Positions 18,841-23,804 of a DNA stretch of 64,000 nucleotides are shown piece after piece. Source of the DNA: Heptranchias perlo (lineage: Eukaryota); NCBI RefSeq assembly GCF_035084215.1, contig NC_090330.1, forward strand, positions 3,782,001 to 3,846,000, given 5' to 3'. Position numbers and translations under genes: made by a program. Positions within the stretch are counted from its first letter, which is position 1; each line of letters opens with the position of its first letter. A model generated the notes under the pieces. That model did not search any database. It had not been told where the DNA came from and was given only the letters and a program-made list of their open reading frames with translations.

Positions 18841-19467
18841 GTTCTAACAAGTCACTGGTTCTGTAGGGATCTGTCAATTCGTAACTATAAAAATAGTGAA
18901 GGCATTCACAGATATTTAAATAATAGAAATGGTTCAAAGATATTGGATTTACACTTGCAACATTCCTGCTTATACATTATACAATAAGAGGCATATTTTA
19001 ATCTCTATAGTTTTATTAACGTGTTATAAATGATCTCGCGTGTCCCAGGCGTCTGAAACTAACTGATGGGAACCAACAGGTAACGAGAGGACAAGGAACC
19101 AGTGATATTTATGCTTCAGACATTTTGTGTTGAAATGATTCTGACATATTTTAAAAGTAAGTTGTTACTTCTAGAAATGAATCAGATTAATAAACCTGTA
19201 AATACCTAGGGGCTCGAATTTAGCAGGCCTGCGGGTTCCCAGCGGGTGGTCCTCCGGGAGCGTCGAAAACGCGGACGGCTAATCGTGTGCGTCCCCCACG
19301 CGATCGCGGGATAATTGGACCCATTAAGCCCTGCTTCCGGGTTCTGCGCTCCCCAGCTGCGTGCCGGCCGGCTGCGCATGCGCAGTACCGTCGACGCGAT
19401 GTAGGAGCTCCAGTTAAAGGGGCAGTCTCCCAAAGCCCCTCCTGCTGCAAGCAAGAGGTCTGGGAGA

Positions 19468-21262
19468 ATGGCTCAACAAAGGGGAAAGGCTGCGCCCCGT
19501 TTTTCAGATCTGGCACTGCAGCTGATGCTGGAGGGCGTGAGGAGGTGGAGGGAAACACTCTTCCCAGAAGATGGGCGCAAGTTCCCTGCCGCCGCAACCA
19601 GGAAGGCATGGGCAGAGGTGGCGGCGGAGGTGAGCAGCAGGGGCAACACCCCAACGACTTGGGAGCAGTGCCGCAAGCGCTTCAATGACCTGACTAGGTC
19701 TGGCAAGGTGAGTACACCAACGCACCCTCCCACATCCCGTCCCCACCATCACGCCAAGCAGATCACAACCCCCTCCTGCACAGCCACCACTGCGCTCCAT
19801 CAGCAATCCTCACAGCCACTCATTCACCATCCTCGCCGTGCACGCAAGTACCCACCGTCCCTGACCCCACTCGAACACTACCACACACCCCAATCCCCAT
19901 GCAATGGGATGGGCACGTGGCCCACGCTTCCCCCCATCCGTTCCGCGCCACGCTCAACCCAACCACACCGATGCTCGATGCGTCTCACGATGCAAGACGC
20001 ACCCACTCACACATCTGTGTTTTGCCTTCACAGGAGAAGAGAAGCAAGAACAATAGGGAAAGGGCACGCACCGGAGGTGGGCCGCCGCAAGTGGTGGAGC
20101 TCACCGACGCAGAGGTGGAGGCGCTCGACCTCGCCCGCACGCGACATTGCCTGTCAGTGGCCGATGGCGAGTGTGTCGCTGCCGAAACGGCCGGTAAGGG
20201 AAAGCTGACACTCAACACCCATGATCGCGAGTTACCGTCTCATCACCTGCCATCAGGCGCACTGTCAAGTTGGTCCACATGCCTCAAAGTGCCCTCTGTT
20301 CTCTTGCAGGTCCGTCTTTGGGTCAAGCGAGCGTGGGGGGCGATTCCTCAGAGGACATGGCGGTCTCTGAGGGTGCATCGTCACATCAGAGCCAACCATC
20401 CACCAGCGCAGAGACACGCACCTCGGTGGGTCCCCCTCGCCAACTAGTTGGGGTAGCACTTGGTGAGTCACCGCGCACGAGTGAGCATGAGCAGACCCTG
20501 GTGGCAGGGGCAGCCGCGGAGGGTCCGCGACGGAGGGAGCACTCATCTCCAGGCTCTGCTCAGCCGGACCCAGATGCTGAACCCAGGGGGCCACCAGTGA
20601 AAAGGAGAGTCGTCGAGGGCCACCAGCTAATTGCTGAGGTACTGGCAGAGGTGCCGCGCGCATTGTCCACAATAGCGCAGGCGATGGAGGAGTCCACCTC
20701 CTGCATGTGGGCATTGGTGGCGCAGGCACAGGAGGGTACCGGCGACACAGTGTCGCGGGTAGGTGCGGGACTGTCTGCGGTGGAGGACAGGCTGGCCTCC
20801 CTCGAGCGTCACGCACAGCTCCACTTCGAGTCCTTGCAGGCCCTGACAACGTCTGTACGGATTCAGGGTGAGCAACATTCCGACGCCACCAACAGGCTGA
20901 GGGATACACTAGGGGTGGCCTTGCAAGGCCTCACACATGCCATCCAAACTGCCGTCCAGCAGGGTGGAAGGGGTGATGTGGGCCGAGGCCAAGAGAGGGA
21001 TGATGGTGACCGGGGACATGGAAGCGGGGACGCCTCTCAAGGCGTCCCCACGTCCCACCCGTCGCCCACCTCTCAACCAGTACCCGCAATGGTGCCTCCT
21101 CTCCAGGTGGCCGAGTCTGCCCCTGTCCCGGTGCAGGAGGAGCAGTCTGTGGAGGTGCCCTCACGGGCACCGAAACCCAGGGGCCGTCCGCCAAAAGCAT
21201 CAACCGGTCAAGGCGAGAACACGAGCAACCTGCCACTACCTCTGCTGGAGCCACAGGGGTAG
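19468..21262 (+). CDS. Harbinger Myb/SANT-like DNA-binding protein, spliced (exons 19468-19707, 20034-20193, 20310-21262; ~450 aa)
   Basis: Exon 1 APRFSD...AWAEVAAEVSS...TWEQCRKRFNDL ends at AAG|GTGAGT; exon 2 follows ttcacag| and reads EKRSKNNRERARTGGGPP; phase-1 donor G|GTAAGG joins the acceptor cttgcag| in frame with the 20270-21262 ORF. Confidence 0.85.
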
Positions 21263-21603
21263 CACCACGTAGGGGTTCCCGGAGAAGAATTGCAAAGGCC
21301 TTATAATCACAAAGGGAATACACCAGGGTGTTTATTATTTTGTACTTTGTTTCTTATATAATGTCACATTCCAGATATTAAATAGTCTATTCTCACCACT
21401 CCTGCCACCTCTCGTCCATTCTTCCGCGGCTTGTGCAATAGTTGCGTTCCGTGGAGGCCATCATGACGGCGAACACCTGCTGCCACCCATTGGGCACACT
21501 GCTGTGGGTGCAGGATTACTGGCAGCACTCTTCAGTGGAGGGGGCTGGTATGGCCGCTCGCATGTGCAGGTGAGGAGATGCGAGCGCCTCGCAGTGTCTG
21601 ACT

Positions 21604-22869
21604 CTAGGAGAACCGTTGACGTATGAGTGCGTCCCTGGCCCGGCGACCATCCCGGTGAGTCGCGGCTCGTCGCATGGGTCGTCCAACATCCTCTGGCGCG
21701 TCCTCCTCCTCTGCCTCCTCCTCCTCCGCCTCCTCCTCCTCCTCCTCCTCCTCCTCCTCCTTGCCCTCGCCTTCCTCAATGTGGGTGGCGGGTGTGGATG
21801 GGGCCTCCTCCAGCGGCACCCCTCTCAGTTGGGCCATGTTGTGCAGGGCACAGCAGACAACTATGATTCGTCCCACTCTGAATGGTGTGTATTGGAGCGC
21901 TCCCCCAGAACGATCAAGGCACCTGAAGCGCATCTTGAGAAGCCCTATGGTCTGCTCAATTGTAGACCTGGAAGCAGTGTGGCTGTCATTGTACCGACGC
22001 TCCGGCTCGGTGATGGGGTTCCTCAGAGGTGTCATGAGCCACGTGTGGAGGGGATACCCCTTGTCGCCGAGGAGCCAGCCGTTGCCGGCGTTGGGTGCCT
22101 GCAGGATGGGCGGGACGGCGGACTCCCTGAGGACGAAGGCATCGTGGCAGCTGCCGGGGTATCTGGCGCACACGTGTAGGAATCTCTGGCGGTGGTCACA
22201 GATGAGCTGGGCGTTCATGGAGTGATACCCCTTCCTGTTGATGAACAGCCCTGGCTCATGCGGAGGTGCCCGTATTGCGATGTGGGTGCAGTCGATTACA
22301 CCCTGCACCCGTGGGAAGCCGGCCATGGCATGGAATCCAACCGCCCTCTCCATCTGGCTGCGCTCGTCCATGGCGAAGTTGATGTAGTGCGAGGCCCTGC
22401 GGAACAACCCATCGGTGACCTGCCTTATGCACTTGTGTGCAGAGGACTGATAGACCCCGGTGATGTCCCCGGTAGCACCCTGGAAGGAACCGGATGCGAA
22501 GAAGTTGAGGGCAGTGGTGACTTTGACGGCGACAGGTAAGAAGATGCTGCTTGGTCCATCAGGGAGCAGCTCGTCGTTAAGGAGGCTGCAGATGTCGGCG
22601 ACTACCTGGCGATTGACTCTGAGCCTCCGTATGCACTGCTCCTCGGAGAGGTCCATGAAGCTGAGCCTCGCTCTGTACACCCTGTGCGGAGGGTAGTGCC
22701 TCCTGCGACGCATCTCTCTCTGCGGTTGCCCTCCCTCCTGCTGTGCAGGTGGGTGTGCCGCAGCACCGTGTTGGGGGGCCCCACCTCTCCGAGGCGGACG
22801 GCGTGGACTGCGAGGCTGCTGGGGCTGGTCATCCTGTTCGTCCTCCGACGATGTCAACGCACCACCCAT
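21604..22869 (-). CDS. Harbinger (HARBI1-like) DDE transposase, ~421 aa
   Basis: Catalytic motifs VIDCTHIAI, GDKGY, RSTIEQTIGLLKMRFRCL; also FINRKGYHSMNAQLICD, PGSCHDAFVL, CCALHN; first ATG at 22869 (MGGALT); Glu-rich C-terminal tract. Confidence 0.93.
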   Translation of the reverse strand: MGGALTSSEDEQDDQPQQPRSPRRPPRRGGAPQHGAAAHPPAQQEGGQPQREMRRRRHYPPHRVYRARLSFMDLSEEQCIRRLRVNRQVVADICSLLNDELLPDGPSSIFLPVAVKVTTALNFFASGSFQGATGDITGVYQSSAHKCIRQVTDGLFRRASHYINFAMDERSQMERAVGFHAMAGFPRVQGVIDCTHIAIRAPPHEPGLFINRKGYHSMNAQLICDHRQRFLHVCARYPGSCHDAFVLRESAVPPILQAPNAGNGWLLGDKGYPLHTWLMTPLRNPITEPERRYNDSHTASRSTIEQTIGLLKMRFRCLDRSGGALQYTPFRVGRIIVVCCALHNMAQLRGVPLEEAPSTPATHIEEGEGKEEEEEEEEEEAEEEEAEEEDAPEDVGRPMRRAATHRDGRRARDALIRQRFS

Positions 22870-23804
22870 CTGGCAGGTGTTGGTGTGAGGGGTTGTGCAG
22901 GGTAGGTGGGTGGGTCCTCGGACTGGGGCTGCGGTTTCGTGTCGGTCTGTCCTCTGGCTTGGCGGGGGTTGGTGGAGGGCAGGGGTTGCCCTATGTGACG
23001 CGGTGGCCTCCTGCGTGGGTGAGGGCTCTCCCCCGTGGAGCGCACCTTGGCACCTGCCACAGGCTGCTGGCTGCAACACGCCTGGTTTGAAGGGTACTGT
23101 TGCCCCCAGTGTGGGAAACTGACTGCGTTGAACCTAAAATCCCACACTTCCTCTTTTGACAGCTGCTTCAGCTCATTAACTGACCACAACGAGCAAGTTA
23201 AGTGCTCTCAAGTGGAACCCCGCTGGCTTTAATTGCCTGCGGGATTCCCACCAGCGGGGCTTTCGCGCGCAGCCCCGCACGTCAGCGCGGTACCCGGAAG
23301 TGGCCGGGATTTCGTCCGAACCCGGTCACGTGATCGGAGATCGGGATTTTCGGGGCCCCCCCGCTGGAAACCCGCAGGTAACCCGACCCTAAAATCGAGC
23401 CCCTGATATCTGAATATCATTCTATTTGGAATAAATTTCAAAACTTGAAAAAAAAAAGGATATCCAAACAGAATGATAATTGCAAATCGGTTATAAATAC
23501 AAAGACATTACAATGAGAACAATTTAAGCTTACAGCAGAAGTACCAGAAATTAAAATATAAACCCCCTCCCCCTATAATGGTGTAACTAACAACACTTCG
23601 ATAAAGCTTCATTTCATATTCCAGGCAGGTTAGCATATTTTAGAGCACTATTAATAATTGAGAATAAGCGTGACTCACTAATGGAACCAGTCATTAACGG
23701 GGGGAGGGATCCATCTCACTGCACTACAGAAAACCCTGCAAGCCAATGCCTGAACATGGAAAGTGATCCTAGTTGGACAGGCAATGGAAAGCTGCACTGT
23801 CAGC

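What the first reader, a model, noticed from the sequence alone, without database searches (positions are those of the whole stretch)
19209..23403. Intact two-gene Harbinger transposon with a hidden three-exon Myb/SANT gene
Seen: near-perfect TIRs, an unbroken transposase with all three catalytic residues, and three exons with canonical GT-AG sites that splice in frame to ~450 aa (the ORF track shows them as three unrelated ORFs). CpGs are largely retained. Established: Harbinger needs both a transposase and a Myb-like partner, and intact natural vertebrate copies are uncommon. Inference: this may be a recently active autonomous element and a candidate for a working transposition system.
Basis: partly seen in the sequence, partly recalled or inferred. 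Interest (0 to 1): 0.7.

Follow-up and report, generated by a model that had tools for sequence, protein, structure and literature searches.

The report
Damaged copy of young shark Harbinger
This is a real two-gene cut-and-paste jumping element, one of roughly a thousand full-length copies in what is likely a shark genome; this copy has a frameshift in its helper gene and is likely impaired, whereas some younger sister copies are letter-for-letter identical on different chromosomes and may still be able to jump.

Summary
A genuine PIF/Harbinger element (19210-23402): 14-bp TIRs, a 421-aa DDE transposase on the minus strand and a three-exon Myb/SANT gene on the plus strand. An NCBI-modelled 465-aa relative has both junctions.

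This copy is not intact. The transposase carries a private C140Y, and the TSD is imperfect.

The family matters more than the copy. There are 2,417 exact left ends and 1,182 transposase-core hits. Of 25 unselected full-length copies, 19 have both frames open. A younger subfamily (346 marker hits) includes whole-length identical copies on different chromosomes. A uniform 2-kb non-autonomous partner shares the ends and the palindromic target. Copies appear to exchange short tracts, and this copy's frameshift is shared with one older copy 2.9 Mb away.

Present-day activity and splicing are unproven: no insertion polymorphism was tested, and shark mutation rates are very low. Intact vertebrate Harbingers are already known (269 in a sea krait), and this scan noted similar shark families in other genomes. 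New member of a known kind.

The parts
19210..23402 (.). Full-length PIF/Harbinger DNA transposon copy, 4,193 bp, middle-aged subfamily
   Evidence: Ends defined by other copies with TSDs; 0.55% from the consensus of its 30 best hits, 59 substitutions from the youngest subfamily consensus
19210..19223 (+). Left terminal inverted repeat (14 bp)
   Evidence: 13 of 14 match the right end
23389..23402 (-). Right terminal inverted repeat (14 bp)
19228..19252 (+). Left subterminal inverted arm; predicted part of the Myb-protein binding region
   Evidence: 88% complementary to 23354-23378; first 64 bp identical between the youngest full-length consensus and the 2-kb family; binding inferred from Harbinger3_DR (PMC9710019 passage)
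23354..23378 (-). Right subterminal inverted arm
   Evidence: last 68 bp identical in the 2-kb family
19206..19209 (+). Left target-site remnant; best read as the right-hand 3-mer with one inserted base
   Evidence: Target-matrix score 11.2 for the one-insertion reading against 2.2 and 3.0 for the alternatives; median of real sites 8.4. Junction confirmed by DNA contigs with 0 differences
23403..23405 (+). Right target-site 3-mer
19468..19707 (+). Myb/SANT gene exon 1 (ATG at 19468; trihelix domain; private R27W, R63T)
   Evidence: PF13873 E=4e-8; 88% identical to P0122 residues 1-80
20034..20193 (+). Myb/SANT gene exon 2 (predicted)
   Evidence: GT-AG kept in 25 of 25 unselected full-length copies; same junctions in P0122 and P0123
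20310..21262 (+). Myb/SANT gene exon 3 as read in this copy (stop 21260-21262; the family's frame ends at 21304-21306); holds an AT-hook-like motif
   Evidence: AT_hook E=0.06, below its cut-off; P0125 model begins at the same acceptor and is 99% identical to a young copy's exon 3
21201..21220 (+). Tract holding the 1-bp frameshifting deletion (about 21204) and three substitutions, shared with an older copy at G000:C6:6693523-6697651; likely gene conversion
   Evidence: Exact 23-mer occurs twice in G000; haplotype in 2 of 55 aligned copies
21604..22869 (-). Transposase ORF, 421 aa; D193 (22293-22291), D243 (22143-22141), E305 (21957-21955); private C140Y (22451), T300S, Q348L
   Evidence: position 140 is S, C or T in 39 of 40 aligned relatives, gap in 1
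21697..21775 (-). Glutamate-rich triplet tract near the transposase C-terminus, length-variable in frame between copies
   Evidence: open transposase frames run 406-424 aa
21331..21382 (.). Predicted polyadenylation signals of the two converging genes (minus at 21331, plus at 21377)
   Evidence: motif scan only; untested

Best explanation
This is a full-length copy of a high-copy two-gene PIF/Harbinger cut-and-paste transposon in what is likely a shark genome, and this copy is likely impaired while the family's youngest branch is probably still competent. Mechanism, inferred from Harbinger3_DR and rice Ping/Pong: the spliced Myb/SANT protein binds subterminal motifs and brings the DDE transposase into the nucleus; the transposase excises at the 14-bp TIRs and inserts with a 3-nt stagger into a palindromic 17-bp site. 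Shown: 3-bp TSDs, the palindromic target shared by full-length and 2-kb copies, successive subfamilies, open frames in most copies, identical copies on different chromosomes. After insertion this copy took private changes and, likely by gene conversion with an older copy 2.9 Mb away, a frameshift that removes the last 33 residues of the Myb protein. It keeps its ends and could be moved in trans.
For: Copy number: 2,417 exact left-end 26-mers and 1,182 transposase-core 26-mers, reversed controls 0. First 60 left-end hits on C1: 25 full length, 33 of a 2.05-kb family, 2 other; 57 of 60 with a perfect 3-bp TSD. Both frames open in 19 of 25 unselected copies, all 20 open transposases keeping D/D/E, and in 30 of 30 copies nearest L046. 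Those 30 have a median of 2 substitutions from their consensus, 13 of 30 have no private change, and two pairs are identical over their whole length on different contigs with their own TSDs (L095/L096, L097/L098). Young-subfamily marker 346 hits, this copy's subfamily marker 226. Between subfamily consensuses dN/dS is 0.42 for Myb (15 synonymous, 18 non-synonymous) and 0.1 for the transposase (3, 1), small counts. Target matrix 7.6 bits, same consensus in both families. Exon structure and long tail match NCBI models P0122 and P0123. Deletion absent from 53 of 55 aligned copies. Nearest named transposases are mostly from sharks and rays.
Against: The Myb protein of this copy keeps its trihelix domain, its middle region, a basic patch near residue 230 and the AT-hook-like motif, so the lost tail may be dispensable; C140Y is judged only from conservation. 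Contigs of guessed-RNA runs (one sample) read straight through both introns (X5 record 2, X8 record 27), so unspliced RNA or DNA is present and splicing is not shown. The 30 youngest copies were chosen by similarity; among 25 unselected copies only 2 are within 5 substitutions of the young consensus and marker carriers have a median of 11. At 7e-10 per site per generation (epaulette shark, PMC10587355) the mean of 0.93 private changes is about 3e5 generations and an identical pair only bounds age below about 5e5, so the burst may be over. Tract exchange between copies can make copies look younger.
Confidence: 0.8

Rival explanations
1. The family is extinct: the burst ended long ago in years, and identical copies reflect the very slow shark clock plus gene conversion.
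For: Mutation rate 7e-10 per generation in another shark puts even near-identical copies at up to 1e5-1e6 generations. About half or more of informative site pairs beyond 50 bp are four-gamete incompatible and linkage is higher under 200 bp (permutation p=0.001). This insertion looks homozygous in DNA run X1, which may be the assembled sample.
Against: Whole-length 4.2-kb identity on different contigs with different TSDs, where the exchange seen is in short tracts; continuous spread of ages down to zero; 30 of 30 youngest copies with both frames open. The rate comes from another species, with a tenfold confidence range.
Confidence: 0.4
2. This very copy is a functional autonomous element; the frameshift only swaps a dispensable tail.
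For: Transposase frame open with D/D/E, all four splice sites canonical, TIRs intact, 432 of 465 Myb residues in frame.
Against: The tail is kept in P0122, P0123, P0124 and P0125 and in 22 of 25 unselected copies. The deletion is in only 2 places in G000, with different TSDs and 4-5% divergence elsewhere, so it was not spread by transposition. C140Y sits at a position that is S, C or T in 39 of 40 relatives.
Confidence: 0.15
3. A domesticated HARBI1/NAIF1-like host gene pair.
For: Relatives are labelled 'putative nuclease HARBI1' and 'myb-related transcription factor' by their sources.
Against: TIRs, TSDs, over a thousand dispersed copies, and stop codons or frameshifts in 6 of 25 unselected copies.
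Confidence: 0.01
4. The family arrived by recent horizontal transfer.
For: A uniform, low-divergence burst is what transfer gave in sea kraits (PMC8437027).
Against: A graded series of older copies exists in G000 (up to 7% from consensus) and modelled Myb relatives at 58-88% identity carry the same species label. The 40 best transposase hits are all from cartilaginous fishes.
Confidence: 0.07

Closest known systems
Harbinger3_DR of zebrafish (Sinzelle et al. 2008; primary paper not held, known through passages of PMC9392472, PMC9710019, PMC3016246)
   Same: Two genes, DDE transposase plus Myb-like protein; TIRs; insertion into a palindromic site with a central 3-mer.
   Different: Harbinger3_DR had to be reconstructed; here hundreds of natural copies have both frames open. 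Its reported target is AAACACCWGGTCTTT; here the consensus is about CAGACAC-NWN-GTGTCTG with a loose A/T-rich centre. No sequence comparison was run.
Harbinger-Snek of sea kraits (PMC8437027, passages)
   Same: Recent explosive expansion in a vertebrate with many intact copies (269 in L. colubrina) and non-autonomous derivatives.
   Different: Horizontally acquired, and that paper reports few near-identical copies; here a graded series of subfamilies ends in identical copies.
Coelacanth and Pleurodeles Harbingers (PMC5381603, PMC5741667, passages; Smith 2012 not held)
   Same: Recent or ongoing accumulation in slowly evolving vertebrates.
   Different: Different lineages; expression was shown in the newt and is not shown here.
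Chondrichthyan proteins annotated 'putative nuclease HARBI1' and Myb-like models P0122-P0127
   Same: Best transposase hits 59-77% identical; P0122 87% identical to the family's Myb protein with the same junctions and length; P0125 99% identical to exon 3 of a young copy.
   Different: They are automatic gene models with host-gene names, not described as a transposon family. No paper describing this family turned up in searches; Repbase and Dfam could not be checked.

Membership tests
PIF/Harbinger superfamily | DDE transposase of the DDE_Tnp_4 / HARBI1 type with catalytic triad | tested here: met
   PF13359 E=1e-36; D193, D243, E305
PIF/Harbinger superfamily | Second gene encoding a Myb/SANT/trihelix protein | tested here: met
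   PF13873 E=4e-8 on exon 1; junctions match P0122 and P0123
PIF/Harbinger superfamily | Terminal inverted repeats | tested here: met
   13 of 14 bp plus subterminal arms
PIF/Harbinger superfamily | 3-bp target-site duplication | tested here: met
   57 of 60 unselected loci, 26 of 30 and 26 of 30 selected copies; imperfect in this copy
PIF/Harbinger superfamily | Both proteins needed; Myb protein binds the ends and imports the transposase | not testable with these tools
   From PMC9392472 and PMC9710019 passages
Intact autonomous copy (this locus) | Both reading frames full length as in the family | tested here: not met
   Myb 450 aa against 465 aa through a 1-bp deletion
Intact autonomous copy (this locus) | Myb transcript spliced at 19707/20034 and 20193/20310 | tested here: inconclusive
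   Gene-model support; guessed-RNA contigs read through the introns and cannot show absence
Currently active transposon family | Identical or near-identical dispersed copies with open frames | tested here: met
Currently active transposon family | Insertion polymorphism or de novo insertion | tested here: inconclusive
   Only this locus was laid, against one same-label DNA run; unbroken junction contigs suggest homozygosity. Youngest loci not tested.
Domesticated HARBI1/NAIF1/MSANTD genes | Single copy, no TIR or TSD | tested here: not met

The most novel reading that the evidence does not exclude
The youngest subfamily is a naturally working, still-jumping vertebrate Harbinger: several hundred competent two-gene copies and about as many or more 2-kb passengers, aimed at a 17-bp palindrome and reshuffled by tract exchange between copies. 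It would give a ready-made two-component, target-selective integration system without reconstruction, and a live DNA-transposon burst in a lineage described as LINE-dominated and slow-evolving.
Probability: 0.4. Interest if true: 0.6.

Novelty: new member of a known kind. Interest (0 to 1): 0.4.

Why it matters
The one vertebrate Harbinger that the reviews I read report as moving in cells was reconstructed (PMC3016246 passage), and no solved structure matched either protein by sequence. A natural pair from identical young copies would let the two-protein mechanism and its target choice be assayed directly. A 2022 survey found no Harbinger in elephant shark and asked for other cartilaginous fishes to be examined (PMC9179366); a reef-shark paper lists Harbinger as the commonest of a 1.58% DNA-transposon fraction but gives recent activity to LINEs (PMC12498223). 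About a thousand young full-length copies qualify that picture. The flagged copy itself is ordinary decay and the wrong one to assay.

Tried and rejected
RNA evidence: no RNA holder on record was listed. Four guessed-RNA runs of one sample cover the element, but none of the 13 joints listed is at either predicted intron; contigs drop variants, so this is not evidence against splicing. Very high summed depth at 22481-23362 was not interpreted.

Horizontal transfer from runs X9 and X11 (organisms B, D): pieces mostly 95-99% alike, but no cover of the unique flanks, and in X9 the element and most neighbouring LINE bins sit at about the same 1/35,000-1/67,000 of X1's summed depth (hand arithmetic; one LINE bin departs, X11 is less even). 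Read as trace carry-over; not used.

Run X12 (organism E) holds a related family with fixed differences and one 170-bp flank piece that stops 50 bp short of the insertion, so it gives no empty-site test.

Inversion or segmental duplication as the cause of the missing TSD: the only other carrier of the deletion has its own AAT TSD and unrelated flanks; rejected in favour of a one-base insertion in the left TSD.

The 2-kb family as a coding element: its consensus has the Myb start out of frame with the domain and no ATG in the transposase-like frame; treated as non-coding.

Linkage decay with distance overall was not significant (p=0.34); only the under-200-bp excess was.

PDB sequence searches: no hits for either protein. 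No structure or complex prediction was run. One search counted 18 of 30 best hits with both frames open under a stricter tail rule; one search gives 19 of 30. Sinzelle 2008 and Smith 2012 are not held. The search of earlier findings by sequence gave nothing.
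Full report
OBSERVATION. The element is a sharp high-GC block (0.57-0.63 against about 0.42). Its ends match at 13 of 14 bases, followed by a 25-nt inverted pair. The minus strand carries a 421-aa frame from ATG 22869 with DDE_Tnp_4 at E=1e-36 and D193, D243, E305. On the plus strand, exons 19468-19707, 20034-20193 and 20310 onward have GT-AG sites and splice to 450 aa; exon 1 is a Myb/SANT domain. Other copies fix the ends at 19210 and 23402.

THE FAMILY. A search of G000 returned more than 30 long matches at 98-99% among 35 scored of 5,506 candidates. 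Exact 26-mers occur 2,417 times for the left end and 1,182 times for the transposase core; reversed controls give 0. To avoid picking by similarity I fetched the first 60 of the 2,417 left-end hits, all on C1: 25 full length, 33 of a uniform 2.03-2.05-kb family, one internal deletion and one more divergent 2-kb element; 57 of 60 have a perfect 3-bp TSD. Scaling by hand gives about 1,000 full-length copies, in line with the core count. Of the 25, 22 have an open 465-aa Myb frame, 20 an open transposase (all D/D/E) and 19 both; median divergence from their consensus is 0.6%, range 0.36-7.3%. The 2-kb family has a median of 1.8%, shares the first 64 and last 68 bp with the young full-length consensus, and looks non-coding. 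Both insert into the same palindrome, about CAGACAC-NWN-GTGTCTG, 7.6 bits, so one transposase likely moves both. CpG sites change 3.2 times faster than other sites in the 30 best hits, which suggests methylation.

SUBFAMILIES. Fifty-five aligned copies fall into old, middle and young groups with many mosaics. This copy is in the middle group (marker: 226 exact hits). Searching with young copy L046 gave 30 copies, all with both frames open, median 2 substitutions from their consensus outside the acidic repeat, 13 with no private change, and two pairs identical over 4,188 bp on different contigs with different TSDs and unrelated flanks: L095/L096 and L097/L098. The young marker has 346 exact hits. 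These 30 are selected: among the 25 unselected copies, 10 carry the marker with a median of 11 substitutions, and 2 are within 5. Between subfamily consensuses dN/dS is 0.42 for Myb and 0.1 for the transposase on few changes, as expected of a lineage that kept needing both genes.

THIS COPY IS DAMAGED. It has a 1-bp deletion near 21204. The family's protein is 465 aa and ends in a basic tail; here the last 33 residues are replaced by 18 others. That supports the exon structure, though these are predictions. Guessed-RNA contigs carry the undeleted form. The copy also has private R27W and R63T in the Myb domain and C140Y in the transposase, where 39 of 40 relatives have S, C or T; that this position lies in the helix-turn-helix is recalled, not tested. 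Its TSD reads TAG/CTG, best explained by one inserted base on the left (score 11.2 against 2.2 and 3.0). Both junctions are confirmed by DNA contigs with no differences, and they run unbroken at single-copy depth, which suggests a homozygous insertion in a run that may be the assembled sample.

ORIGIN OF THE FRAMESHIFT. The 23-mer across the deletion occurs twice in G000. The second place is a 4,129-bp older copy 2.9 Mb away on C6, 95-96% identical overall, with its own TSD, sharing four differences within 21201-21220 and only three elsewhere. A short conversion tract between neighbours is the simplest reading; the direction is unknown. Across 111 informative sites, 52-59% of pairs more than 50 bp apart are four-gamete incompatible and linkage is higher under 200 bp (p=0.001), though the overall distance trend is not significant (p=0.34). 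Exchange between copies is therefore likely common, and it blurs dating.

HOST AND AGE. The 40 best transposase hits are labelled as sharks and rays and all eight Myb hits as Heptranchias perlo, so the host is likely a shark. With the epaulette-shark rate of 7e-10 per site per generation (PMC10587355, passages), 0.93 private changes per young copy is about 3e5 generations (1.6e5-1.6e6 over the paper's interval), and an identical pair only bounds age below about 5e5. Identity alone cannot show present activity. No polymorphism test of young loci was possible, and splicing was not shown.

MECHANISM. Shown: anatomy, TSDs, target preference, copy number, subfamily succession, the damage in this copy. 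Inferred from Harbinger3_DR and rice elements (PMC9392472 and PMC9710019, passages): the Myb protein binds subterminal motifs and imports the transposase, both being required; excision is at the TIRs. Copy gain by gap repair or replication-timed jumping is general knowledge, untested here. This copy is most likely a passenger that sister copies could move.

COMPARISON. It meets the sequence-testable Harbinger criteria and fails 'intact autonomous copy'. Recent vertebrate Harbinger expansions are in print: sea kraits with 269 intact copies (PMC8437027, passages), newt (PMC5741667, passages), coelacanth (PMC5381603, passages). Harbingers were not detected in elephant shark (PMC9179366, passages) and are listed as the commonest DNA transposons of a reef shark (PMC12498223, passage). 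PMC3016246 (passages) gave the Harbinger3_DR target. Searches were seen as listings; none described this family. No supplements were read, and repeat tables there or in Repbase and Dfam may already name it. This scan's unchecked notes e1-8154322 and e1-9248889 report similar worn copies of abundant Harbinger families in other shark-like genomes, so the pattern is not unique.

VERDICT. Real element, correct class and exons, wrong copy. New member of a known kind, interest 0.4. The live question is whether the youngest subfamily still jumps (about 0.4).

Noticed in passing
L031-L090 (33 of 60 loci), e.g. L031, L035, L058: A uniform 2.05-kb non-autonomous family with the same ends and target: right 960 bp about 90% and left 700 bp about 67% identical to the full-length element, so likely a chimera of older relatives; about as numerous as the full-length copies or more.
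   Followed up: partly
G000:C12:41766100-41774482 (L106, L119); C20:28529727-28538087 (L122); C24:29518083-29523163 (L103); C1 L071/L072: Head-to-tail tandem pairs separated by a single 3-bp TSD, full+full or 2-kb+full, suggesting re-insertion into an occupied target site.
   Followed up: no
L012, L020, L036, L098, L113; L060 and L087; L004, L040 and L101; L099 and L118: Insertions at what looks like the same position of paralogous host repeats (similar flanks); such repeats offer ready empty-site controls and show target hot spots (flank alignment run only for L094-L123).
   Followed up: partly
G000:C6:6693523-6697651 (in L091): Older, broken copy that shares only the 21201-21220 tract with the window copy; likely conversion partner.
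   Followed up: yes
window 14803-15822 (-) and 40658-41710 (+): Two open olfactory-receptor frames (7tm_4 E=9e-74 and 3e-67); the transposon lies about 3.4 kb upstream of the first. That sharks have few such genes is recalled.
   Followed up: partly
window 9288-12209 (+): Unbroken 973-aa endonuclease plus reverse-transcriptase frame of a non-LTR retrotransposon.
   Followed up: partly
window 55132-58066 and 13883-14485: Long tandem arrays giving repetitive open frames; likely minisatellites.
   Followed up: no
P0128, P0129: NCBI models of a CDK2-like and an ODF2-like protein include 76%-identical pieces of this Myb-like protein: possible exonisation, or model errors.
   Followed up: no
window 21170-21205: AT-hook-like motif in the Myb-like protein just before the frameshift (Pfam E=0.06, below cut-off); kept in P0122, P0123 and P0125.
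   Followed up: partly
window 21655-22444: One guessed-RNA contig (X5, depth 6) skips 790 bp with GT..AG ends on the plus strand, antisense to the transposase; unexplained.
   Followed up: no
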